A stretch of DNA of 64,000 nt from an uncultured Candidatus Saccharibacteria bacterium (GCA_964521955.1 CAZFTX010000002.1:28785-92784), one strand, 5' to 3'. Positions 3,041 to 62,769 are shown, counted from the first letter of the stretch. Notes: generated from the letters alone by a model not told the origin. Made by a program: numbers and translations.

Positions 3041-3661
3041 ATGAACTTAATAAAATTCATCATTACCGGCCTACTTGTTACCTTAGCCGGGGAATTCCAA
3101 ATAAACATTTTAGTTCAACACTTACCAACAAACAAATACCTTATGGTTTTTGTGGTTTATGGAATTTTACTAAGTATTTTTTATACTCTAGGCAAATTTT
3201 TAGATAAAAAATTTGCTTCAAATAAATCCGATTTATTGTACTACTTCATAGCGGGATTTGTTGGACTTTTAATTGAGTGGTTTTTAATTGGCAACTCTCT
3301 TTACCAAAGTCCTTCGGCAAACCAAGCCGGCATGTTTGCCTGGTGGGCAGCGGTTTTTTTAGTTCCCAGAATTTTTACTAAACTCCCCGACCCTGCAACC
3401 CAAATTGTAAAAAAAAGGATTTATGCAGTTCTAATCCCTTACTCAATTATTTCCACAGTATTTGTCGCCCAACAAGTAGCAGTTCCGGAAATTCATAGAG
3501 TTGCAGCAACCGCACTTACAATGATGTTTGGTTTTATTTTATTAAATTATTTTTTAGTAAACTATTTAATTGCCCAAAATCCTCATTTGCAAAAAAGGTT
3601 ACAATATTTTTACAGGTTTTTAGTTATATTGGCTTTAGCACAATTAGTTTTAATAAAATAA
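3041..3661 (+). CDS. Hypothetical polytopic membrane protein (206 aa)
   Basis: Five or six hydrophobic segments. Confidence 0.45.
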   Translation: MNLIKFIITGLLVTLAGEFQINILVQHLPTNKYLMVFVVYGILLSIFYTLGKFLDKKFASNKSDLLYYFIAGFVGLLIEWFLIGNSLYQSPSANQAGMFAWWAAVFLVPRIFTKLPDPATQIVKKRIYAVLIPYSIISTVFVAQQVAVPEIHRVAATALTMMFGFILLNYFLVNYLIAQNPHLQKRLQYFYRFLVILALAQLVLIK

Positions 3662-3710
3662 AGTAATCCCCAAGCCAAACTGCGCAGTATTTAACTCTCT
3701 ATAATAAAAG

Positions 3711-3777
3711 TGGGCAAGCATCCTTCAGGCTCAGGTCTTAACGACCCAAACCAAAATTCAGCTTGCCCACCCAGAGC
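3711..3777 (-). terminator. Hairpin GTGGGCAAGC...GCTTGCCCAC followed on the minus strand by TTTTATTAT. Putative terminator of the dinB / islet-1 transcription unit.
   Basis: Perfect 10-bp inverted repeat at 3711-3720 / 3761-3770. T-run on the minus strand. Confidence 0.45.
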
Positions 3778-3787
3778 CAGTTTGCGA

Positions 3788-4330
3788 CTAGAGCGCTAGT
3801 GACGTCTCAGCATTGACCGGGAAAAGCAGAGTATGCCCGATAGTCGCAAACCCGATCTCCCGGTTCATGACTCCACCTAGGACACTGAGAATATTCAAGT
3901 CGGTAGACCTTACCATAATTGTTAGTCCATCGACGTGGCCATTGTGCCCATCAGGTACATTTCCCAAACTCGACCAGACGCCTTCAATGAACACCCCCTC
4001 CAAAGGTGTCTCCTCCTCCACATCCTGACGACCTTCATTAATCCTTCGCACAAGCGCCATCAGATCAATCAGGATCGCGTTCATACCTCTACGTCTTACC
4101 TGCGCAGTATGTGGTAGCAAGAGCATCAACGACCGGTAAGACATGCTGGGAGACACAACTCTGATGTTGGGAACAAGAACACCCTCTGTAACAAGATCGG
4201 CAATTAGCCGTCGAGCCTTATCCGGAGAAACACCTACTGCTAAAACGATGTCATCGACTGAGGCTTGAGGGTTTCTCATGAAGGCCATCTGAACTTTCTG
4301 GCTGACTTCCTCCTTTTTTCCAGGCTTCAT
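3788..4330 (-). CDS. Hypothetical protein (180 aa) in GC-rich islet 1, with a possible HTH-like segment
   Basis: ORF with clearly higher GC than flanks. Start overlaps the upstream ORF stop (ATGA coupling). Candidate HTH segment DDIVLAVGVSPDKARRLIADLV. No family recognised. Confidence 0.4.
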   Translation of the reverse strand: MKPGKKEEVSQKVQMAFMRNPQASVDDIVLAVGVSPDKARRLIADLVTEGVLVPNIRVVSPSMSYRSLMLLLPHTAQVRRRGMNAILIDLMALVRRINEGRQDVEEETPLEGVFIEGVWSSLGNVPDGHNGHVDGLTIMVRSTDLNILSVLGGVMNREIGFATIGHTLLFPVNAETSLAL

Positions 4331-4851
4331 GACTGACGTCCTGTCTGACCGACTGCAACAAGTTGCCGAGCCGGAGGTAACAATAAAGTCTGCGATCCTA
4401 CTCCGGAGATTTGCGGCAACGATTCCACCGTAACCTCCAAAGCAATGCCCTGACGGTCAACCACAAGACATGCCCTCACCAGGCTTACAACCGCGGGCAA
4501 AATTTCGCTGGTAACTCCCCCCGGAAGCAAACCATTGATCTGATCAAGACTGTCCAGTGCTTCTAAGACAAGCTTGGTCTTCCGATTGGTCACCACCAAC
4601 ACAACTACCCAGCCCTCACCCACCAAACCATTTTTCTCTGGAAACGGCACTTTCATACCGACGATGGGCTTAAAACTGAATGTAGAACCTAAGTCCCACT
4701 TGCCTGTGCTGGCTTGTACTGCGAAGAACCAGGTTCTTTTACTGCTTCTTACCGGTCCAACTTCTTTCAGCACCTTAACTCTCTTTCTCCGCTTCTCACA
4801 ATCAAACTGACTTGCGGAAGGGAAGACAGTTATAAAAAAAATTACAACCAT
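4327..4851 (-). CDS. Hypothetical protein (174 aa, possibly shorter from M at ~4657) in GC-rich islet 1
   Basis: GGAAGGA about 5 nt before the ATG. Candidate promoter TTGACC-N18-TAAAGT upstream on the minus strand. The C-terminal half vaguely resembles a Roadblock/LC7-type fold (very tentative). Confidence 0.35.
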   Translation of the reverse strand: MVVIFFITVFPSASQFDCEKRRKRVKVLKEVGPVRSSKRTWFFAVQASTGKWDLGSTFSFKPIVGMKVPFPEKNGLVGEGWVVVLVVTNRKTKLVLEALDSLDQINGLLPGGVTSEILPAVVSLVRACLVVDRQGIALEVTVESLPQISGVGSQTLLLPPARQLVAVGQTGRQS

Positions 4852-27413: not shown

Positions 27414-27515
27414 AGTGAATAATTTTATTGTTTGGAAATTGCTCATTTTGTGGTCAATTTTTTCTCAGTAACCAAGTAAGATCCAAGGAAACTGAGAAAC
27501 GGTAGGAGGTTTTTT

Positions 27516-27947
27516 ATGATTAAGAGGTTCAAGCTTGAACCGGGAATGTTCGGTGACGAACGGCAGTCGATCAAGGCCCTGGGGAGCGGCGGTAGCTGGG
27601 ACTTACGTTTTGGCCAAAACCGTGCGGACTGTTTTGTCCGCAACGCAAACTGGTACAACGGCCGCGGCGAAAAAATTGGACGAGGCGACTTGTCCTTACG
27701 CGATTTGTACGGGATTTCATGTTCAATCTTGGACGATGAAATCTTCATCATCGTTCCAGGACACGAACTGCCGCGAAGCGACAAAGAAGTCGCCGGCAAA
27801 GCCGAGTACGCCGTCATGTTCGGGGGAAAGTACTTCCTCGTGAACAGCAATGGTCAACGTGGTCAACACCGGGTGCGAGCAATGGACTTTGAGATCATCC
27901 CTCACACCAGCCTGCTCGGCAAAATGCAGCTGCCGGCCACCGCCTAA
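27516..27947 (+). CDS. Islet-2 protein A, hypothetical 143 aa (no recognised family)
   Basis: AGGAGG at 27504-27509 with a 6-nt spacer to the ATG. High GC. The overlapping antisense ORFs 27443..27850(-) and 27535..27843(+) lack signals. Confidence 0.5.
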   Translation: MIKRFKLEPGMFGDERQSIKALGSGGSWDLRFGQNRADCFVRNANWYNGRGEKIGRGDLSLRDLYGISCSILDDEIFIIVPGHELPRSDKEVAGKAEYAVMFGGKYFLVNSNGQRGQHRVRAMDFEIIPHTSLLGKMQLPATA

Positions 27948-27952
27948 CCTAT

Positions 27953-28323
27953 CCCAAGAGGTCACTTGGGAAAGCACGGGGAACTGCCACGTTCCCCTAC
28001 CCTTCTAAGTTCACTATTTCGATAATGAATTTAAAAGGGGGGCTAGCTCACAATGCTAAAAGCACTGAGCATAAACTAGACTCTCTTCGGTGCACAGCCG
28101 GGAGGGGGCGCCGCAAAAGGCGTTTAACTTATCTGTGCAAGACCCTTGTTTTAGCGCCACAAGGCGCTCAATAGCAATAACCCTCATAGCACGGAGGAAC
28201 GTACCATGTAAGTCACCCGGGCGTAGTCAAGCAGTATCCGACTACGCCCACCCTTCTAAGTTTGTCACTTGATGATAAGTTTAAAAGGGTAAAACCCTAT
28301 ATCTCAACGTTCAGGAGGAAACA
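27953..28323 (+). ncRNA. Hairpin-rich intergenic region with two hairpin plus ~40-nt direct-repeat modules (CCCTTCTAAGTT...TTTAAAAGGG) flanking a ~200-nt core with at least 5 hairpins. Candidate structured RNA or regulatory array.
   Basis: Hairpins at 27978-27997 and 28219-28249, each followed by a module (27999-28040; 28250-28290). Further hairpins include AGCGCC-acaa-GGCGCT and GCTCA...TGAGC. Confidence 0.35.
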
Positions 28324-28755
28324 ATGCCACAGGCATTCAAAGATTTTTACTGGGATTTGGCTAAGACGCTCTTAACCGGGCTCGGTTGGTCAGTTCTGGG
28401 ACTGCTCATTGGTCTCAATGAGACCTTTGACACCAGCAAGGTCCACGCTGACAACTTCTGGGCTGCTGCCATGTTCTACGGTTTATGGACGGGGTACAAA
28501 CTCGTCTACGGCACCGAGGGAAGACTACGCCTCATCAAATCAATGCTACTTATCCTGCCAATCATGGGGCTTTCAGCACTCTTTGTCCCGCGCTGGCTGG
28601 GCAACTCGCACATCCCTTTGGGGTGGTTTAGTTGGTTCATGACCTACGGGTTGTGGACTGCGGGCTTAGGTTGTGGAGCAGTCTTTGCCACAACTTTGAG
28701 CCTGACTGTAGCGGGGGTAAACCACCTTAGGCAGTGGTTTTCAGCGGAGAACTGA
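28324..28755 (+). CDS. Islet-2 protein B, hypothetical 4-transmembrane membrane protein (143 aa)
   Basis: AGGAGG at 28313-28318 with a 5-nt spacer. Four hydrophobic helices, Trp/Gly-rich. Confidence 0.5.
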   Translation: MPQAFKDFYWDLAKTLLTGLGWSVLGLLIGLNETFDTSKVHADNFWAAAMFYGLWTGYKLVYGTEGRLRLIKSMLLILPIMGLSALFVPRWLGNSHIPLGWFSWFMTYGLWTAGLGCGAVFATTLSLTVAGVNHLRQWFSAEN

Positions 28756-28769
28756 GACCTTCCGCCCTA

Positions 28770-28820
28770 CCCGGGAGTCGCGCAATGCGCGCGACTCCCG
28801 GGTATTTCTTTTTTATTTTA
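28770..28820 (+). terminator. Rho-independent terminator (14-bp perfect stem CCCGGGAGTCGCGC / GCGCGACTCCCGGG plus T-run)
   Basis: Read directly. Followed by the 18-bp perfect palindrome TTGTCGCAATTGCGACAA at 28849-28866. Confidence 0.75.
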
Positions 28821-28891
28821 AATTCTGACAAACAACATATCTGAACTTTTGTCGCAATTGCGACAAAATATTAGATATGAAAATACAAGTA

Positions 28892-55975: not shown

Positions 55976-56339
55976 AAGAATTAATTTGAGAAGACCAAAC
56001 CTACGGTTTTTTCTTCTCAATACTCATCTTTTTCCCTTAGCTGTTTCCTCGGCCTCGGAGTAAGTCCGCTGGCCTTAGAGCTATTAATTAATTTATTAAT
56101 TTGCACAATAAAAACTGATTATAGACATCAGTTTACGCCTACTTCGCTTGTTTAGGTACTCTCCCGAAACCAGTGGGAGTAACTTCCCTAACAAATCGAC
56201 AAAATTGAGTAATTCGTTCACAAAGTGTTTTGTGAATGGGTTTCTTATTCAATTGCTATAAATTATACCCTATTTACACCAAATGTCAAATGTGATATTT
56301 TACTTAGTCGTATCACAACGAAATCTAGGGAGGACCAGA

Positions 56340-56680
56340 TGGAGATATGTTATAAACTAGTATGGGAAGGGTCTAGAGGACGTGGTCCCGACAACCAAGT
56401 TTTGATTGGGTTGCAGGTCTACCGATACCTGCCACCGGTCGAACACATGTACCTTGAATTTCCAACCAAGAAATCAAAGGAGCAACCTGAGGAGGACATC
56501 TTTACCCCAACCTTCATAGTCACGGAATACAGAAACAGAGCTGACACAGGCGAAACAACCCTGTGCTTATTGCTTATCCAAGACGCGACCATGCCTCAAG
56601 AGCAAAAACTGCTTGAGCAAAGAGCTGTCATTCAAATTCTCCGTAAGGACTACGACTGGAAGTGGGGCAACCCCTACTAA
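56340..56680 (+). CDS. Islet-3 hypothetical protein (113 aa)
   Basis: GGGAGGA 4 nt before ATG (MEICYKLVWEG...). GC-rich. The N-terminal extension in the ORF track (from 56225) is AT-rich and lacks an SD. Confidence 0.45.
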
Positions 56681-56701
56681 GCCACACAACCGCGCACAAG
56701 A

Positions 56702-56748
56702 AAGCGCCCCGACAATAGCACGTCAGGGCGCTTCGTTTTTTTTATTCG
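56702..56748 (+). terminator. Rho-independent terminator AAGCGCCC...GGGCGCTT plus T8
   Basis: Read directly after the islet-3 ORF. Confidence 0.6.
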
Positions 56749-56825
56749 TGTTTTTCGTGTGCAATTCGCCTGCCCGCCATCAGCTGGAGCCTTAGGCGAC
56801 TGCAGGCGGGTGTATTAATGTCTCT

Positions 56826-57449
56826 TTAGAAAAGTCTCAAACCAAACAAATTACTAAAGAAAATTATTACCGGCAAAAGTATTCGGTCCAAAAGCCCCAT
56901 ATACAAAAAAACTAAAACCAAAATAAAACCATACCTTTCCCACTCCAAAATTTTATACATCCATTCGTCCGGAGCCATGCTGGCAACTATTTTACTCCCG
57001 TCCAAAGGCGGAATAGGAATTAAGTTAAAAGTGCCTAAAACAATATTTATTAAAGCCGCCTGCAAAAGAATCGGACCGGATACGTAATTTGCCAATCCAA
57101 GTTTAATAGGAATAATAAACAACACGGCTAAAATAAAGTTAGAAACCGGTCCGGCTAAAGAAACTAAAGCCATGCCGCTTTTTGGGTTTTTTAAATTTCC
57201 AAAATTCACCGGAACCGGCTTAGCCGCGCCCAAAATAATTGGACTACCGGCAGCCAAAAGCAAAATTGGCAAAAGTATACTGCCAAAAGGGTCTATGTGA
57301 GGTATGGGATTTAAAGTTATCCTACCTTCGTCCCTAGCAGTACTGTCCCCTAATTTTTCAGCCATAAGCCCATGAGCCACCTCATGCACTATGGCGGAAA
57401 ATATTAAGATTATAAAAGTAATAAATATGTTCATAATATTATTGAGCAA
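56826..57449 (-). CDS. Site-2 protease-family (M50) membrane metalloprotease
   Basis: HEVAHG zinc motif within a transmembrane helix. 207 aa polytopic. Confidence 0.7.
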   Translation of the reverse strand: MLNNIMNIFITFIILIFSAIVHEVAHGLMAEKLGDSTARDEGRITLNPIPHIDPFGSILLPILLLAAGSPIILGAAKPVPVNFGNLKNPKSGMALVSLAGPVSNFILAVLFIIPIKLGLANYVSGPILLQAALINIVLGTFNLIPIPPLDGSKIVASMAPDEWMYKILEWERYGFILVLVFLYMGLLDRILLPVIIFFSNLFGLRLF

Positions 57450-58055: not shown

Positions 58056-59102
58056 CTATTTTATTACTATCTTTTGTTCCCTGTCTTTAGGGACAAGTTC
58101 CATCCATATTGGCCCGGGAGTAAAATTTATTTCATTTTCAAACTCGTCGTAAAACCTTGTTCTCCCGTCTTCTTTTTTCCAAATACCTTTCATACTTACC
58201 CCGTTTAGAAAAATAACCGCTTTCCCACCGGAATTTAAGTCTATATCTACGGAAAGTAAAGGATCTTTGGGCACTGGTGTAACTTCCACAATTTGTAGAA
58301 CTATATTTTTTGCAACTATTTGCTTGCCTGTGTTTTCGTCTATGTGCGGTTGAAAATACTGCAAACGGCTATATTCATTTGTTTCTTTGTTATATTCCCA
58401 AGTAACTTCATACCCCGGACGAGAGAAATCTATAAAAATACTTTTTACTGTGGTGGTTGGAAGCTCCCCCGCTTCTTGAAACCGCCAGGGACTAAAAGTG
58501 GCTTTGGCTTCGTACTTGTAAAAGCTTATTAAATCCCGAAGTTTCGAAGTTGATGTAAAAATATGGTGAGGTTGTACTTTTCCTTTTTTTCTGGGAAAGT
58601 AATCAAAATTAAAGTATTCGTTTGCATCGTCTAAATTTTTATACTTCCCGTTTTTTAACTGAGCAATAACTTCATTGCTTCCGCCCACATGAGCGTAAAG
58701 CGCGTGCCATTCGTCTGCAATTTCTGCGTAATATTCCCTAGCACTTCTCACAGGTCCAATACTTGAAACTTCCTGAGCTTGAAAAATAGCTAAAAAGCGA
58801 GTTATTCCCCCTTCAGACAAAGCTTCGTAAACTATGTCTGCTTGCGAAAGTCCCGACTGAGGCCAAGAATCCGGATGATTTTCTACCATAACTGCTAAAG
58901 GCCTTAACTGGGAGAGTTCTTTGGAAACCTGCATACCGTTTACAGAATAAAATTTTTCTTCTTGTTCTTGTAAAACCGGCGTGTTTAATGCACGTTTTTT
59001 TTCATACTTAGAAAAAAAGATTAATATTACGCTTAAAAAAATAATCCCTGCTATACAGACAATGGTAATTTTAGTGCTTTTTGAAAGTTTTTTCAATTTC
59101 AT
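58056..59102 (-). CDS. DUF3048-family (YerB-like) membrane-anchored protein
   Basis: N-terminal transmembrane segment. PLAVMVENHPDSWPQSGLSQADIVYE...GGITRFLAIF resembles DUF3048. Confidence 0.55.
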   Translation of the reverse strand: MKLKKLSKSTKITIVCIAGIIFLSVILIFFSKYEKKRALNTPVLQEQEEKFYSVNGMQVSKELSQLRPLAVMVENHPDSWPQSGLSQADIVYEALSEGGITRFLAIFQAQEVSSIGPVRSAREYYAEIADEWHALYAHVGGSNEVIAQLKNGKYKNLDDANEYFNFDYFPRKKGKVQPHHIFTSTSKLRDLISFYKYEAKATFSPWRFQEAGELPTTTVKSIFIDFSRPGYEVTWEYNKETNEYSRLQYFQPHIDENTGKQIVAKNIVLQIVEVTPVPKDPLLSVDIDLNSGGKAVIFLNGVSMKGIWKKEDGRTRFYDEFENEINFTPGPIWMELVPKDREQKIVIK

Positions 59103-59120
59103 TTAAATATTTTAGCATAA

Positions 59121-59155
59121 AAAAGCGAAGAGGACGGGAACCTACGGTAGGTTCG
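59121..59155 (-). terminator. Terminator hairpin GAGGACG-GGAACCTAC-gg-TAGGTTC-g-CGTCCTC plus T-run (minus strand), 3' of islet-4 ORF 1
   Basis: Read directly. Confidence 0.6.
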
Positions 59156-59201
59156 CGTCCTCGGATGTTCTCGTGCATATGACGCTGTTGTATGACTGGT
59201 G

Positions 59202-59534
59202 TCACTTCAGCTGCATGAATGAGGGTAAGTGATTCCTGCGAAAGTCACCAATCAACTTAGGATCCATAAATCGGAAACCCAATTTGTTTGCCACTTCAGC
59301 AATGCCATTGGTGCTCACCACGATGATTTGGGGTTTCCCCATGAGATTCATCTTAGAAACCCTTTCCAAAAGGGAGGAATCTTTGGTGTACAACAACAGT
59401 AGTTTGCACCCAGAGATTTTCTCTTTGTCGGGACTCAGAAACTCAATCTCCCCCTGAAATTGGATTGGTAATTCACAGGCAAGCCAATGAACTACTGCCA
59501 GGTTCGCTCCTTCACCACACACGGCAACTTTCAT
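59202..59534 (-). CDS. Islet-4 hypothetical protein 1 (110 aa from MKVAVCGEG)
   Basis: GAGGAGG 5 nt before ATG. GC-rich. Weak N-terminal similarity (MKV..GEIE) to the neighbouring ORF. Confidence 0.45.
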   Translation of the reverse strand: MKVAVCGEGANLAVVHWLACELPIQFQGEIEFLSPDKEKISGCKLLLLYTKDSSLLERVSKMNLMGKPQIIVVSTNGIAEVANKLGFRFMDPKLIGDFRRNHLPSFMQLK

Positions 59535-59812
59535 TTCGTCCTCCTCAGGATGTTTTCTCACAAAAAAATAACTCCGAAATTCGGAGTTATATTACTGGGA
59601 GAAAAATATATTGATTACCGCTGTTTGGGCGGTTTTTTGTTCTGAAATTCTGTTTTATTGAATCTCTTTTCATGTAGTTCTTAAAAAGCAGAATACACCA
59701 ACTAAAACCTTATGTCAAATTTTTATCTGCGGATAAACGAATTAATACAAGATTACACTGATAAAAAGAACCTCGCGGACAAGCCGCGAGGCGAGAAAGT
59801 ACAAAGGAGTCT

Positions 59813-60061
59813 TTACTCTCGAAGAATGCGAAATTCGAATCCGCAAAGTGCGCTAATGTCGTTCTGGGTGATTCCATTCTCGTTTGGCAACAAGCACAAA
59901 ACGCGACCTATTTCACCCGGCTCAATGGCCTGAACGAAAAACCTAACAGGTTCCCGGTTAAAGGCCTCAACAGATACTTCAGAGCCGACATAAGGCAGCT
60001 CTTTCAATTCAATCTCCCCATGAAGATCTGGAGGCCCTAAAACAATGATTGGCACTTTCAT
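59813..60061 (-). CDS. Islet-4 hypothetical protein 2 (82 aa from MKVPIIVLG)
   Basis: AAGGAGAG 5 nt before ATG. Terminator hairpins CCTCGCGG-acaag-CCGCGAGG (59771-59791) and AACTCCGAA-at-TTCGGAGTT (59570-59588) follow on the minus strand. Confidence 0.45.
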   Translation of the reverse strand: MKVPIIVLGPPDLHGEIELKELPYVGSEVSVEAFNREPVRFFVQAIEPGEIGRVLCLLPNENGITQNDISALCGFEFRILRE

Positions 60062-60140
60062 CAAGTCTCTCCTTTACAGAACCAGAATAACACAAATACT
60101 CCAATACTAGCGAGTATTGGAGTATTTGTTGATTAATATA

Positions 60141-60596
60141 CTAAATACTTTTTTGTTCTAAAGGTTTATTTCGTAAAAGGATTGCCATAACCGCGGCAAT
60201 TAAGGCAAGATTTTTAATTATATACTGGCCTTCCAAAGTAGGGACAAAAGCTTTTTGCCAACCAACTTCAGGTAAAAACACCAAAGGCATGAAAGTAGTT
60301 ATCATATGTAATACAAACAAAACTGCAACAAAACTGGTCAACTTTGGAAACAAAAATAAAATGCCTATGAGCATTTCAAATAATGCAAAAAGTACTATAA
60401 ACTGGGAAAAAGTTAGAAAAGGCAAAGTTTTATGCTGTAAGTCGGAAACTAAAGGATTAGCAGGACTTATATCTATAATTTTTAGAAAACCAAACCAAAA
60501 ATAAATAACAAACAAAGCAAACCTGGCAAAAGCACTGTAATGCTTCTGACAAAAAGAAACTACTTTATTTTCTAAGTTTTGTAATATTGAGTTCAT
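60141..60596 (-). CDS. DoxX-like membrane protein (151 aa, 4 transmembrane segments)
   Basis: Hydrophobicity pattern. A 13-bp perfect-stem terminator (60093-60122) follows. Confidence 0.4.
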   Translation of the reverse strand: MNSILQNLENKVVSFCQKHYSAFARFALFVIYFWFGFLKIIDISPANPLVSDLQHKTLPFLTFSQFIVLFALFEMLIGILFLFPKLTSFVAVLFVLHMITTFMPLVFLPEVGWQKAFVPTLEGQYIIKNLALIAAVMAILLRNKPLEQKSI

Positions 60597-60627
60597 ATAA
60601 ATTTATTATATCACTATTTTACTTCCA

Positions 60628-60703
60628 AATGGTCGGGATGCCGGGAATTGAACCCGGTCTACATGCACCCCATGCATGCGTACTGCCGGTATACTACATC
60701 CCG
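60628..60703 (-). tRNA. tRNA-Pro (anticodon GGG), CCA encoded
   Basis: Hand-folded cloverleaf: acceptor CGGGATG/CATCCCG, anticodon stem CATGC/GCATG with loop AUGGGGU, T-arm CCGGG-TTCAATT-CCCGG. Confidence 0.8.
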
Positions 60704-60744
60704 ATCATTTGAAAACAACAATGCTAATTATACAAAACTAACTT

Positions 60745-60840
60745 AAAATATGCGAATAAAAAAGAAAGCGCCCGGGAACTTTCTGGTCTTCAGAATCTAG
60801 CTAGGTGGTCTGAAGAACCTTACTTTTCCCGGGCACATCC
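60745..60840 (-). terminator. Long imperfect hairpin (GCCCGGGAA...TTCCCGGGC with inner GGTCTTCAGA/TCTGAAGAACC) plus TTTCTTTTTTATT on the minus strand. Terminator of the islet-5 genes.
   Basis: Read directly. Confidence 0.5.
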
Positions 60841-60941
60841 GCAAGGTCGCTATGTCTACTGGTACGGCTCCACGAAAGAGCCTGCTTGGTGGAAACAAAG
60901 CGCCTTACGAAACTTGAAGATGATGAGTATTTAAAGAGTGC

Positions 60942-61151
60942 TTAGTCCATGCGCTCTTCCCAGCCTTTGCGGTCGCGGACTTGTTGCATCTCTACACACC
61001 TCTCAGTGAGGCTAGTGTTTGCAGGCTTTTGATGGCTGGTGCTCATTTGTTTCAGCCTGCCAAGCTTTTCTGTAGCGGCAGTTGCCTGAACGAAAATTCC
61101 CACATTTGAGGTGCCTAGAGGGACACCTCGCTCATCTCCATTCATATTCAC
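60942..61151 (-). CDS. Islet-5 hypothetical protein (69 aa)
   Basis: AGGAGG 6 nt before ATG. GC-rich. Confidence 0.4.
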   Translation of the reverse strand: MNMNGDERGVPLGTSNVGIFVQATAATEKLGRLKQMSTSHQKPANTSLTERCVEMQQVRDRKGWEERMD

Positions 61152-61417
61152 CTCCTGGTGATTGTATTTGTGATTTTGGCGGGCAGATGTATCGTAACCC
61201 TAAGGCGCTTCTCCGCAGATCCTTTGTTAAAGGGACCGCAGGGAACTATAGCCGGTAAGTTTTCGCTCTGTGGACCGAAAGGTCCGATACATTCGCACTT
61301 TCGTGCCCTGCCCATACTTGTAGGACGATTCCTGGTTTTCAGGACCGTCCGAATCTTTGCAAGCTTGAATGCTCGCGACTTTGTATAAAAATCATTTTTA
61401 CACAATGTCTCAAGCAC
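61148..61417 (-). CDS. Islet-5 ORF (89 aa, very basic). May instead be a structured leader RNA.
   Basis: ORF overlaps multiple hairpins (GGACG..CGTCC, GGACC-tttc-GGTCC). No SD. Confidence 0.2.
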   Translation of the reverse strand: MLETLCKNDFYTKSRAFKLAKIRTVLKTRNRPTSMGRARKCECIGPFGPQSENLPAIVPCGPFNKGSAEKRLRVTIHLPAKITNTITRR

Positions 61418-61749
61418 TAAATTTTTTATCCAACTTCGTTTACCTCAAGTAGACTTCGTCGATTCGCCGCTAAGATGCAAAATATTAATATTGGCGAAAA
61501 AAATACCCCTTTTTGAGGGGCAGGTTCAAATTTCTTTTCTTCTTTAAAAACCTTAACCCCTAAATTTCACAGCCCAAGACAAAGTCTTGACCAAGACCTT
61601 GCTAAATGGAATGCAAATTGGAGTAAAATGTTTATTCATACCTCGTTGGCAATATTACACCTGTTAAAAAAAGCTGTCAAATAAATTATCCACACGCCTT
61701 CGCCAAGGCTTCGGCGTGCAAGCACTCTTAATCCTTAAGATTGCATGAA

Positions 61750-62769
61750 CTAAACAGTTAAATATTCACTCCCGGAGTTTTTGTGCTCTTCACTCATTTT
61801 TTCAATAATACTGTCCAACTCCTCGTCACTAAAAAATTCAATGGTAATTTTTCCACCAATCCCCTGCCTCTGTATTCTAACCTGAGTTCCCAGCTTACCA
61901 CGAAGCTCTGTTTCCAAAGCCATTAACTTAGGGTCGGGTACGGCTGCGTCCATTTGCTTTTTCACAGTAAGCTCTCGAACTTTGTTTTCCACCTGTCTTA
62001 CGTTAAGTCCGTCCTGCAAAATTAACCTGTACATTAAAAGCATTTTGTCCGGATCAACCAAACCTAAAATTGCCCTAGCATGCCCTTCGGTAATTTTTTG
62101 TTCAATTACCGCTCTTTGAATTTCGGCAGGCAAGTTTAAAAGCCTAACTGTATTAGCCACAGCCGGGCGAGACTTGCCCACCTTTTTAGCCACCTGGTCC
62201 TGGGTCAGACTAAAAGTCTTCATTAACCTTTCGTACGCCAAAGCTTCTTCAATTGGGTTTAACTCCTGTCTCTGAATGTTTTCAATTAAAGCGACTTCCA
62301 ACTTTGTCTGGTCTACCATTTGCTCTTTAACAATAGCGGGAATTTTTTCTAAACCAGCAAGCTGTGAAGCCCTAAAACGCCTCTCCCCGACTACAATTTC
62401 AAACCCTACAGTGGTTTTAGTGACCACCACCGGCTGAATAACCCCATGTTCTTTTATGGAGTCGGCAAGTTCTTTTAAGGCTTCCGGTTCAAAAACCTTT
62501 CTTGGCTGAAAAGGGTTAGGAACTATTTTTGCAACTTCAATTTCCTGAATTTTTGCATCTTCGTAAGAAACTTTTTCGGAAACTAAATTTGGCTTTGGCA
62601 TTTCAGGCGCAAAAGCGGTTTGAGCACTTAACCCGGGGTAACCCGACGGTACAGACGAGCTTGAAACCAAACTTACCGGTTCTAAAGGCTGAATAGTAAT
62701 ATTTGGCTGTTGAGAATTTATTTCTTCCATAAAACAATAAGTCCTAGTAATACTGTAAAATTTTACCAA
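61750..62769 (-). CDS. parB: ParB/Spo0J-family partition protein with extended N-terminus
   Basis: ParB box region IVGERRFRA and HTH KVGKSRPAVANTVRLL. Confidence 0.8.
   Translation of the reverse strand: MVKFYSITRTYCFMEEINSQQPNITIQPLEPVSLVSSSSVPSGYPGLSAQTAFAPEMPKPNLVSEKVSYEDAKIQEIEVAKIVPNPFQPRKVFEPEALKELADSIKEHGVIQPVVVTKTTVGFEIVVGERRFRASQLAGLEKIPAIVKEQMVDQTKLEVALIENIQRQELNPIEEALAYERLMKTFSLTQDQVAKKVGKSRPAVANTVRLLNLPAEIQRAVIEQKITEGHARAILGLVDPDKMLLMYRLILQDGLNVRQVENKVRELTVKKQMDAAVPDPKLMALETELRGKLGTQVRIQRQGIGGKITIEFFSDEELDSIIEKMSEEHKNSGSEYLTV

What the first reader, a model, noticed from the sequence alone, without database searches (positions are those of the whole stretch)
59105..61440. Two GC-rich islets flank tRNA-Pro. 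Islet 4 carries a pair of MKV...GEIE small-protein genes, each with its own SD and terminator.
Islet 4 holds ORFs 59202..59534 and 59813..60061, with weak N-terminal similarity (MKV..GEIE). Islet 5 holds 60942..61151 plus a hairpin-dense segment. They sit on either side of the native DoxX-like gene and tRNA-Pro(GGG). tRNA loci are classic integration hot spots, but no integrase or direct repeat of the tRNA 3' end was found, so these would be remnants or cargo only. Each islet ORF is followed by a clean hairpin terminator. The 61148-61417 ORF is highly basic and overlaps stacked hairpins, so it may be a structured 5' leader rather than a protein.
Basis: partly seen in the sequence, partly recalled or inferred. 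Interest (0 to 1): 0.55.

Follow-up and report, generated by a model that had tools for sequence, protein, structure and literature searches.

The report
Hypervariable small-gene islets beside tRNA-Pro
In a small Patescibacteria (CPR) chromosome, the GC-rich patches beside tRNA-Pro are small orphan genes that differ between near-identical strains, and one of them follows a previously undescribed, conserved structured RNA leader; this is interesting strain-level variation, but its function is unknown.

Summary
The features are real: the ORFs, Shine-Dalgarno (SD) sites, hairpin terminators, tRNA-Pro(GGG) and the DoxX-like gene are all at the stated coordinates. The interpretation needs revising.

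**Islet 4.**
- ORF1 (59202-59534) and ORF2 (59813-60061) are not detectable paralogues.
- Both are orphans among billions of database proteins.
- ORF1 sits in a replaceable slot between a conserved leader and a conserved terminator. Relatives with 91-95% identical flanks carry at least two other unalignable ORFs there.
- ORF2 lies in a roughly 420-460 bp insertion that those relatives lack.

**Islet 5.**
- It is not strain-specific cargo. It occurs between ParB and tRNA-Pro in all five close relatives sampled.
- It comprises a ~275-380 nt structured leader (61148-61421; z = -7.5, covariation, no Rfam match), an SD held in a 4-bp hairpin, a 67-73-codon ORF, and conserved 3' hairpins.
- The ORF is always open, but its alleles are hyperdivergent and mosaic.
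- The 89-codon ORF over the leader is not a gene.

**Wider context.**
- Core genes here almost never have an SD (2/64); islet ORFs almost always do (7/8).
- I found no integrase, no tRNA repeat and no phage or plasmid similarity.

The most likely reading is fast-evolving accessory small proteins whose alleles are exchanged by recombination in conserved flanks. Their function is unknown.

The parts
59119..59162 (-). Conserved GC-rich terminator hairpin (GAGGACGCGAACCTACCGTAGGTTCCCGTCCTC plus T-run). It forms the 3' frame of slot A and lies just upstream of the DUF3048 gene.
   Evidence: Sequence. Local z is -4.5 to -4.9. It is conserved in L002, L003, L004 and L113.
59163..59538 (-). Variable slot A. 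In this genome it holds ORF1 with its SD. Relatives hold unalignable ORFs of similar size here.
   Evidence: BLASTN breakpoints against L002/L003/L004: flanks are 91-93% identical and nothing aligns inside. A third allele is visible in L113.
59202..59534 (-). ORF1, 110 aa (MKVAVCGEG...), with SD GAGGAGG at 59540-59546. An orphan small protein with a coding-like composition.
   Evidence: only itself found. GC1/2/3 = 0.49/0.33/0.53. The AF2 single-sequence model has beta-alpha-beta topology at pLDDT 57.5. Foldseek gives only generic flavodoxin/receiver folds, E >= 0.007.
59539..59722 (-). Conserved spacer and leader. It contains a promoter-like TTGACA-17-TATTCT (59718-59690), hairpin 59617-59633, and the intrinsic terminator hairpin 59568-59590 plus U7, which ends about 25 nt before ORF1.
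   Evidence: 91% identical to L002 and L004. (z = -4.5).
59723..60182 (-). Segment B, present only in this strain. It carries a new DoxX C-terminal tail, a perfect 17-bp hairpin (60092-60129), ORF2 with its SD, a terminator and an AT-rich tail. Relatives have 23-26 nt here.
59813..60061 (-). ORF2, 82 aa (MKVPIIVLGPPDLHGEIEL...), with SD AAGGAG at 60069-60074. An orphan.
   Evidence: GC1/2/3 = 0.59/0.34/0.46. The AF2 model is all-beta at pLDDT 51.8, which is uninformative.
59770..59792 (-). Intrinsic terminator after ORF2 (GCCTCGCGG...CCGCGAGGT plus T-run).
60141..60596 (-). Core DoxX-like membrane protein gene, 151 aa. It has no SD; a TATAAT box lies 9 nt before the ATG.
60630..60703 (-). tRNA-Pro(GGG), with a promoter-like TTCGCA-18-TATAAT at 60756-60727.
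60755..60941 (-). Islet 5 3' UTR. It has two conserved hairpins. The distal one (60770-60834 plus T-run) is a long intrinsic terminator.
   Evidence: z = -5.4. Seven pairs carry compensatory changes across 4 strains.
60942..61145 (-). ORF3, 67 aa (MNGDERGVPLG...GWEERMD). A hypervariable small ORF.
   Evidence: The frame is open in all 4 alleles, while other frames have 2-5 stops in three alleles; in L111 two reverse frames are also open. The alleles form a homology chain: window-L111 SW 69, L111-L112 SW 74, window-L112 not significant. Window vs L110: 9 nonsynonymous and 4 synonymous codon differences.
61149..61160 (-). 4-bp hairpin CACC-AGGA-GGUG that holds the ORF3 SD (AGGAGG, 61151-61156).
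   Evidence: Helix 12 is conserved, with one C-G to U-G change.
61148..61421 (-). Conserved structured leader RNA, 274 nt here and 344-377 nt in three relatives. It has 12 helices in two multi-helix domains and covers the spurious 89-codon ORF 61148-61417.
   Evidence: z = -7.5. 96.9% of cells are paired against 37-49% in slid controls. Six pairs have compensatory changes against 1-3 in controls. No Rfam family matches. nhmmer and the covariance model find only the 5 orthologous copies.
61504..61680 (-). Upstream unit: a near-consensus promoter TTGACA-17-TAATAT (61680-61652), a 28-codon sORF (61553-61639) and terminator 61504-61522. In L111 the structured RNA begins 12 nt after this terminator, so the leader and ORF3 may be transcribed by read-through.

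Best explanation
The two islets are different things that share one design: a small SD-led ORF whose sequence is hypervariable between strains, set inside a conserved RNA and terminator frame. The host is a Patescibacteria (CPR) chromosome whose core genes barely use SD sites.

- **Slot A (ORF1).** This slot is always occupied, but by alleles that cannot be aligned with each other.
- **Segment B (ORF2).** This is an extra, strain-private insertion.
- **Islet 5.** This is a resident transcription unit. A ~275-380 nt structured leader ends in a small hairpin holding the SD. It is followed by a 67-73-codon ORF with mosaic, hyperdivergent alleles and by conserved 3' hairpins that end in a terminator.

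Shown:
- the anatomy;
- strain variability with sharp boundaries;
- conservation and covariation of the RNA frame;
- reading frames kept open;
- orphan status of the proteins;
- the SD contrast between islet ORFs and core genes;
- independent assortment of alleles at the two loci.

Inferred:
- The ORFs encode real, fast-evolving accessory small proteins.
- Their alleles are kept diverse by diversifying or balancing selection and are swapped between strains by homologous recombination in the conserved flanks.
- The leader gates ORF3 translation through the SD hairpin.
- The proteins act in some conflict or interaction, with phage, host or sibling strains.
For: Strain variability:
- Flanks are 91-95% identical, but nothing aligns inside slot A. 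Segment B is absent from L002, L003 and L004.
- A third slot-A allele is visible in L113.
- Homology decays gradually into the slot. The SD region and the last ~15 nt are recognisably related but diverged.
- A global nucleotide alignment of the two coding sequences scores above codon shuffles (z = 2.4, p = 0.017).

Islet 5:
- It is present in L106, L110, L111 and L112.
- The leader is 80-94% identical across these strains, while the ORF is unalignable between the window and L112.
- The L111 allele bridges both types.
- The ORF3 frame is open in all four alleles.
- Allele combinations differ between strains. The window has ORF3-w with A-w. SRR31968663 has an ORF3-w-like allele with A-L002. SRR32414321 has ORF3-L112 with A-L002. 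This indicates recombination between loci about 1.6 kb apart.

Coding signal:
- GC by codon position is coding-like.
- The ORF bodies show no excess RNA structure.

SD contrast:
- Islet ORFs have an SD in 7 of 8 cases; core genes in 2 of 64.

RNA structure:
-.
Against: - There is no expression or protein evidence.
- All the ORFs are orphans. No family, defence-system or phage-family match was found.
- Substitutions between close alleles are mostly nonsynonymous: 8 to 1 codons for the L002/L004 allele and 9 to 4 for ORF3. This is also what neutral, non-coding drift gives.
- AF2 confidence is low.
- ORF1 is immediately preceded by an intrinsic terminator and has no obvious promoter of its own.
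- Only 4-5 strains are available. The covariation statistics are therefore modest, and the shuffle control is known to be liberal for related sequences.
- Replacement by unrelated foreign cassettes, as opposed to divergent alleles of one gene, cannot be separated for slot A.
Confidence: 0.5

Rival explanations
1. One reading: the islets are degraded remnants or cargo of an integrative element that used tRNA-Pro as its attachment site, and the integrase has since been lost.
For: - The islets are adjacent to tRNA-Pro. Their composition looks foreign and they use an SD.
- The neighbourhood rearranges. tRNA-Pro is inverted and abuts the islet-5 terminator in L110 and L111.
- L002 has a different 1-kb islet with a 247-aa ORF where the window has tRNA-Pro.
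- More distant relatives hold unrelated small ORFs between ParB and tRNA-Pro.
Against: - No copy of the tRNA 3' or 5' part occurs anywhere in 64 kb.
- No integrase was found among the ORFs checked.
- Islet 5 is conserved in every close relative.
- Equivalent islets lie far from tRNAs.
- There is no similarity to phage, plasmid or viral contigs.
- Slot A and segment B are separated from the tRNA by a core gene.
Confidence: 0.15
2. The islets are non-coding. They are structured RNA genes, or in the case of slot A a variable spacer, and the ORFs are incidental.
For: - Structure z-scores are strong and covariation is seen in the islet-5 5' and 3' parts.
- The ORFs are orphans.
- Substitution patterns look near-neutral.
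- Structure-prediction confidence is low.
Against: - The ORF bodies themselves have z near 0.
- The SD and ATG are conserved in position. The frame stays open through alleles too divergent to align, while other frames mostly carry 2-5 stops.
- GC1 > GC3 > GC2 periodicity is typical of coding sequence.
- The ORF3 N- and C-terminal peptide motifs are conserved.
Confidence: 0.15
3. A dedicated mechanism makes the ORFs hypervariable: either a diversity-generating retroelement or another targeted mutator, or integron-like site-specific cassette exchange at the hairpins.
For: - Divergence is confined sharply to the ORF, between conserved hairpin-containing frames.
- Divergence in the ORF far exceeds that of adjacent non-coding RNA.
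- Short in-frame nucleotide patches are shared between neighbouring islet ORFs.
Against: - No template repeat was seen in the locus, and no reverse transcriptase or integrase among the ORFs checked.
- The hairpins are simple perfect terminator stems without attC features.
- The mosaic L111 allele and reassorted allele combinations are what ordinary recombination among old alleles produces.
- The shared patches have marginal statistics (BLAST E 0.04-0.16).
Confidence: 0.05
4. Artefact: chimeric assembly or binning contamination has placed foreign GC-rich DNA into a low-GC genome.
For: The composition and SD usage differ from the rest of the window. ORF1 and ORF2 are seen only in this genome and in one read set.
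Against: - A separate Logan assembly of SRR16481186 reproduces 60316-56788 exactly.
- Independent samples carry islet 5 and occupied slot A at the same junctions.
Confidence: 0.02

Closest known systems
Replacement-type flexible genomic islands and hypervariable regions of streamlined bacteria (as described for Prochlorococcus, Pelagibacter and O-antigen-type loci; from my own knowledge)
   Same: The chromosomal position is fixed and the flanks are conserved. Strains more than 90% identical elsewhere carry non-homologous or unalignable content. Alleles reassort by homologous recombination. Many of the genes are orphans.
   Different: The scale is tiny, with single ORFs of 67-119 codons rather than multi-gene islands. 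The variable part is framed by conserved RNA hairpins or a structured leader. GC is higher than the host and translation is SD-led in a genome that otherwise lacks SDs.
Integron gene cassettes / CALIN arrays
   Same: They are small, mostly orphan, apparently promoter-less ORFs. Each is followed by a hairpin, and they vary between strains.
   Different: The hairpins are short perfect terminator stems with T-runs. They lack R''/L''/L'/R' boxes and extrahelical bases. No IntI is present, and boundaries do not fall at GTTRRRY.
tRNA-targeting integrative elements and islands (for example tycheposons and classical tRNA-att islands)
   Same: They lie next to a tRNA gene, carry variable cargo, and the tRNA neighbourhood rearranges between strains.
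   Different: There is no duplicated tRNA segment and no recombinase. The element nearest the tRNA (islet 5) is the conserved one.
Phage morons
   Same: Each is a single gene with its own signals and terminator, and a composition unlike its surroundings.
   Different: There is no prophage context and no similarity to any phage record or viral contig.
Structured cis-regulatory leaders (riboswitches, ribosomal-protein or T-box leaders) and large ornate RNAs found near tRNAs (ROOL, GOLLD)
   Same: It is a long, multi-helix, conserved RNA 5' of an ORF, with the SD held in a helix. It is adjacent to a tRNA gene, as ROOL and GOLLD often are.
   Different: No Rfam family matches, even at E <= 10. It is restricted to one narrow clade. 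The regulated ORF is hypervariable, which is unlike metabolite-sensing leaders. It contains an ORF, unlike ROOL and GOLLD.

Membership tests
Paralogous gene pair (ORF1/ORF2) | Significant sequence similarity between the two proteins | tested here: not met
   BLASTP best E = 2.4. Smith-Waterman p = 0.24 against shuffles. hhalign picks out only a 10-12 residue motif, P-x-x-[LF]-x-G-E-I-E, at E 0.2-0.7.
tRNA-integrated mobile element | Direct repeat of the tRNA 3' (or 5') segment marking attL/attR | tested here: not met
   30-, 18- and 25-nt tRNA-Pro probes with up to 3 mismatches hit only the gene itself in 64 kb.
tRNA-integrated mobile element | Integrase or recombinase gene in or next to the element | tested here: not met
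   No recombinase domain in any ORF from 58056 to 62769 or in 10 further window ORFs. Not every window ORF was scanned.
Integron cassette array / CALIN | attC sites: imperfect 57-141 nt hairpins with RYYYAAC...GTTRRRY boxes at cassette borders | tested here: not met
   The border hairpins are 23-33 nt near-perfect stems followed by T-runs. The borders do not fall in a GTTRRRY motif.
Any Rfam RNA family (riboswitches, T-box, RNase P, tmRNA, group I/II introns, ROOL, GOLLD, HEARO, OLE, raiA and others) | Covariance-model match | tested here: not met
   The window was tested at gathering threshold, 58500-62500 at E <= 1, 60700-61700 at E <= 10 and the relatives at E <= 1. Only tRNAs and noise were found.
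Conserved structured RNA (generic) | Stability beyond shuffles, and base pairs kept by compensatory change across homologues | tested here: met
   z = -7.5. 81 pairs are 96.9% paired, against 37-49% when slid. Six pairs have double changes against 1-3 in controls. Covariation score is 0.159 against <= 0.064. Only 5 sequences, so the support is moderate.
Protein-coding gene (ORF3) | Reading frame preserved across divergent homologues | tested here: met
   All 4 alleles are open from the same SD-ATG to the same 3' position (67-73 codons). Other frames have 2-5 stops in three alleles; in L111 two reverse frames are also open. Expression was not tested.
Protein-coding gene (ORF1, ORF2) | Homologues, purifying selection or expression | tested here: inconclusive
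   There are no homologues. Only compositional periodicity and the SD support coding. The allele in relatives shows 8 nonsynonymous and 1 synonymous codon changes.
Known anti-phage defence or phage protein families | Profile match in PADLOC or PHROGs | tested here: not met
   (nothing below E = 0.009).
Diversity-generating retroelement target | Reverse transcriptase plus a template repeat near-identical to the variable region | tested here: inconclusive
   No repeat of ORF1 or ORF3 sequence was found within 58900-61800. No reverse transcriptase among the ORFs scanned. The rest of the window was not searched for such a repeat, and the rest of the genome is unavailable.

The most novel reading that the evidence does not exclude
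The conserved RNA frames are functional parts of a dedicated system that displays hypervariable small proteins. On this reading, a new ~300-nt RNA class (the islet-5 leader) and the conserved hairpin frames define 'slots'. In these slots SD-led mini-genes are diversified or exchanged at rates far above the genome background. Possible drivers are targeted recombination or mutation and GC-biased gene conversion, which would also explain why the slots are GC-rich. Canonical SD translation would set these genes apart from the SD-less core proteome of a CPR bacterium.
Probability: 0.12. Interest if true: 0.75.

Novelty: new variant of a known kind. Interest (0 to 1): 0.45.

Why it matters
CPR/Patescibacteria have tiny, streamlined genomes, and their strain-level accessory content is poorly understood. 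In this case the accessory fraction appears as single-gene, GC-rich, SD-led orphan islets, and their alleles turn over between strains that are over 90% identical elsewhere. If these islets encode real proteins, they are prime candidates for the molecules that mediate host, phage or sibling-strain interactions in an episymbiont. The SD-versus-no-SD split would then offer a simple sequence marker for finding such genes. The islet-5 leader is a clean candidate for a new structured RNA. It has defined helices, natural size variants (a ~75-nt expansion in three strains) and a testable SD-hairpin mechanism.

Tried and rejected
- **RNase P RNA.** I noticed by eye that parts of the leader resemble RNase P CR-I/CR-V (GGGCAGGG..., ACAGAG...CCGGCUAU). 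No RNase P model matches even at E <= 10 in a 1-kb search, and the proposed P4 strands do not pair, so I rejected this.
- **tmRNA, group I/II intron with ORF, T-box, ROOL/GOLLD/HEARO.** No Rfam hit.
- **Homologue searches for ORF1 and ORF2.** The word-indexed search of 5.8 billion proteins and an exhaustive HMMER search for ORF1 returned only the query itself.
- **Family and structure searches.** Pfam, PHROGs, PADLOC, NCBIfam and PDB sequence searches found nothing.
- **Structure prediction.** AF2 without an alignment gave low-confidence models. Foldseek returned only generic Rossmann-like folds.
- **Phage, plasmid and viral-contig searches.** Only the tRNA matched.
- **Closer genomes.** GTDB representative genomes and JGI metagenomes, searched through the DoxX-like protein, gave nothing above 62% identity. 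The useful relatives came from exact-protein and cluster look-ups instead.
- **Shared border motif or inverted repeats among the islets.** None found. The 20-nt imperfect inverted repeat flanking islet 5 (I7) is AT-rich and partly part of a leader helix.
- **A direct repeat flanking ORF1** (GAGAAAACATCCTGAGGAGGACG / GAGAACATCCGAGGACG). It is not reproduced in the relatives' allele, so I do not treat it as a target-site duplication.
- **Remote copies of the leader.** nhmmer and a covariance model of domain 2 found only the five orthologues. MAFFT misaligned L110 in one attempt. The model alignment therefore used L110 with its two insertions removed by hand.
- **Literature searches on CPR and SD, leaderless translation or hypervariable islands.** Nothing relevant was found.


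Full report
**What is there**

The window is a 38% GC chromosome segment. ParB homologues and neighbouring loci are annotated as Patescibacteria / Candidate Phyla Radiation. On the minus strand the order is:
- ParB (61750-62769);
- a promoter, 28-codon sORF and terminator unit (61680-61504);
- islet 5 (61421-60755);
- tRNA-Pro(GGG) (60703-60630);
- a DoxX-like membrane gene (60596-60141);
- ORF2 (60061-59813);
- a conserved spacer (59722-59539);
- ORF1 (59534-59202);
- a GC-rich terminator (59162-59119);
- a DUF3048 gene (59102-58056).

GC enrichment is modest (0.46-0.48). Third-codon-position GC separates the islet ORFs better: 0.46-0.53 against 0.18-0.43 in core genes.

**Are ORF1 and ORF2 a pair?**

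They are not, by any test I could run.
- BLASTP gives no alignment better than E = 2.4.
- The Smith-Waterman score is within the shuffle distribution (p = 0.24).
- The shared element is an in-frame 19-nt stretch, 17/19 identical, that encodes GEIE. Its BLAST E-value in a small all-against-all comparison is 0.16.
- hhalign picks the same short motif, P-x-x-[LF]-x-G/V-E-[IL]-E, in ORF1, ORF2 and the relatives' slot-A protein, at E 0.2-0.7. I record this as unexplained, not as homology.

Both proteins are orphans.
- The word-indexed search of 5.8 billion proteins returned only the query itself.
- An exhaustive HMMER scan of 1.84 billion representatives, run for ORF1, did the same.
- Nothing matched in Pfam, PHROGs, PADLOC, NCBIfam or PDB sequences.

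Their GC by codon position looks coding (0.49/0.33/0.53 and 0.59/0.34/0.46), and the ORF bodies are not unusually structured. The AF2 single-sequence models are weak, with pLDDT 57.5 (beta-alpha-beta) and 51.8. Foldseek finds only generic flavodoxin or receiver folds.

**Relatives**

Cluster and exact-protein look-ups recovered short contigs from other samples whose core genes are 87-98% identical.

*DoxX-DUF3048 spacer.*
- Flanks of L002, L003 and L004 are 91-95% identical to the window.
- Window 59163-59538 (ORF1 with its SD) is replaced by an unalignable 387-bp segment. That segment carries a different SD-led 119-aa ORF.
- Window 59723-60182 (ORF2, its hairpins and a new DoxX C-terminal tail) corresponds to only 23-26 nt in the relatives.
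- L113 shows a third sequence at the 3' end of slot A.
- The borders are not clean insertion scars. The SD region and the last ~15 nt are recognisably homologous but more diverged than the flanks.
- A global nucleotide alignment of ORF1 with the 119-aa ORF scores above codon shuffles (z = 2.4, p = 0.017).

This pattern suggests old, highly diverged alleles of one locus rather than insertion of unrelated DNA. I cannot settle the question.

**Islet 5 is conserved**

L106, L110, L111 and L112 all carry it directly downstream of ParB.

*Leader RNA (61148-61421).*
- It folds with z = -7.5, and the minimum-free-energy and centroid structures are identical.
- A five-sequence alignment gives 81 consensus pairs in 12 helices. 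Of the cells, 96.9% are paired against 37-49% for slid controls.
- Six pairs carry compensatory double changes against 1-3 in controls. The covariation score is 0.159 against at most 0.064.
- Three strains have a ~75-nt expansion inside one hairpin. L110 has a further palindromic insertion. This is typical of peripheral variation in a structured RNA.

*SD hairpin and ORF3.*
- The leader ends in a conserved 4-bp hairpin, CACC-AGGA-GGUG, that contains the SD. ORF3 follows.
- ORF3 is open from the same ATG in all four strains that cover it (67, 67, 73 and 69 codons). Other frames mostly carry 2-5 stops.
- Its sequence is hyperdivergent. The window and L112 alleles are not significantly similar as proteins.
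- L111 matches the window at the C-terminus (SW 69) and L112 at the N-terminus (SW 74), both beyond all 500 shuffles. The alleles are therefore mosaic.
- The adjacent leader is 82-94% identical, so divergence is confined to the ORF.

*3' UTR.* Its two hairpins, the second a long terminator, are conserved with seven compensatory pairs.

*Searches for the RNA elsewhere.*
- No Rfam family matches the window or the relatives.
- nhmmer and a covariance model of domain 2 find only these five copies among 113 loci.
- With filters off there is nothing convincing in relatives whose ParB is about 82% identical. Those relatives instead hold unrelated small ORFs between ParB and tRNA-Pro.

**Recombination**

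Allele combinations differ between strains.
- The window has ORF3-w with the ORF1 allele.
- The SRR31968663 strain has a window-like ORF3 with the 119-aa allele.
- The SRR32414321 strain has the L112-type ORF3 with the 119-aa allele.

Loci about 1.6 kb apart therefore assort independently.

**SD contrast**

Of 64 core ORFs of at least 100 codons, 2 have an SD 5-mer core at -18 to -4. Of 8 islet ORFs, 7 do. This includes the other GC-rich islets at 3659-4832, 27447-28867 and 56225-56857. Some core genes have a -10 box just before the ATG (14/64). Seven ribosomal-protein-region genes share an AU-rich upstream motif. The islet genes therefore use a different translation-initiation signal from the rest of the genome.

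**Mobile-element tests**

- No tRNA-Pro partial repeat was found.
- No recombinase was found in the locus or in ten other ORFs.
- The borders have no attC-like features.
- No border motif is shared among the islets.
- Nothing resembles phage, plasmid or viral contigs.
- The tRNA neighbourhood does rearrange. tRNA-Pro is inverted against the islet-5 terminator in L110 and L111. In L002 a different islet with a 247-aa ORF precedes DoxX.

**Interpretation**

Shown:
- small SD-led ORFs in conserved RNA and terminator frames;
- sharp, strain-level hypervariability of the ORFs;
- a conserved, novel structured leader;
- allele reassortment.

Inferred, at about 50% confidence:
- The ORFs are real, fast-evolving accessory proteins.
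- Their diversity is maintained by selection and shuffled by homologous recombination.
- The leader and SD hairpin control ORF3 translation.
- High GC reflects either a foreign gene pool or GC-biased conversion at a recombination hot spot.

Substitution patterns between close alleles are close to neutral expectation: 8 to 1 and 9 to 4 nonsynonymous to synonymous codons. ORF1 sits directly behind a terminator with no promoter of its own. A non-coding or decaying-gene reading therefore stays open at about 15%. The tRNA-integrated remnant reading gets about 15%, a dedicated diversification mechanism about 5%, and an assembly artefact about 2%.

**Verdict**

This is a real, moderately interesting locus. 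I file it as a small-scale variant of replacement-type flexible islands, plus a candidate new structured RNA. It is not a paralogous gene pair, and there is no demonstrable tRNA-integrated element.

Noticed in passing
window 3659-4832, 27447-28867, 56225-56857: Three more GC-rich islets (0.47-0.51 GC) hold SD-led orphan ORFs of 180, 174, 143, 143 and 113 aa with no family match. The islet at 56225-56857 is shared by L113. In L004 a different GC-rich sequence replaces it just downstream of the M50 peptidase gene, so hypervariable islets look like a genome-wide habit.
   Followed up: partly
whole window, for example upstream of 39418, 42798, 43297, 44386, 45111, 46235, 48352: Core genes almost never have an SD (2/64). 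Seven genes in the ribosomal-protein region are preceded by a conserved, often tandem AU-rich motif, ATTCGTAAnTTAGTA...ATTCGTAATTAGTAAAG, right before the ATG. This may be an alternative translation-initiation or regulatory signal.
   Followed up: partly
window 61504-61680 (minus strand): A near-consensus promoter (TTGACA-17-TAATAT, with a TG upstream of the -10 box), a 28-codon sORF (61553-61639, MNKHFTPICIPFSKVLVKTLSWAVKFRG) and a clean terminator. The unit is conserved in all relatives, with 5 synonymous and 2 nonsynonymous changes. It is probably a real micro-protein or a small RNA. In L111 the structured leader starts 12 nt after its terminator.
   Followed up: partly
window 61690-61735: A ~50-nt GC-rich palindromic hairpin (CACGCCGAAGCCTTGGCGAAGGCGTG) sits just after the ParB stop. 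It is present in the window and L110 but absent from L106, L111 and L112. It is a presence/absence polymorphism that resembles a miniature mobile or REP-like hairpin.
   Followed up: no
L110 10069-10116; L111 8741-8795; L111 6114-6197; L108 5313-5999: tRNA-Pro is inverted relative to ParB in L110 and L111, and also in the more distant L109. tRNA-Leu(CAA) orientation also flips between relatives. A LAGLIDADG ORF sits between tRNA-Leu and ParB in L111 and L108.
   Followed up: partly
window 59923-59940 vs 61079-61096; 59440-59458 vs 60006-60024: ORF2 shares an in-frame 18-nt patch (16/18, encoding FVQA) with ORF3 and a 19-nt patch (17/19, encoding GEIE) with ORF1. Each is marginal on its own (BLAST E 0.04 and 0.16). 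Two such patches in one 249-nt ORF are unexplained.
   Followed up: partly
L110 9402-9470, L112 2184-2258, L111 8074-8168 (no counterpart in the window or L106): A ~75-nt expansion lies inside the GGACGG...CCGUCC hairpin of the leader RNA. L110 additionally has a tandem TTGCGCAA palindrome inserted in domain 2. These are natural size variants useful for defining the RNA's core.
   Followed up: partly
L002 1-1061: In the SRR31968662/3 strain the DNA upstream of the DoxX -10 box is a different GC-rich islet. It has an SD-led 247-aa orphan ORF and its own terminator, in place of tRNA-Pro.
   Followed up: partly
L108 7338-8117; L109 7029-8158; L107 4810-5148: More distant relatives (ParB about 82% identical) hold unrelated small ORFs between ParB and tRNA-Pro. 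Several have CxxC...CxxC zinc-ribbon-like motifs.
   Followed up: no
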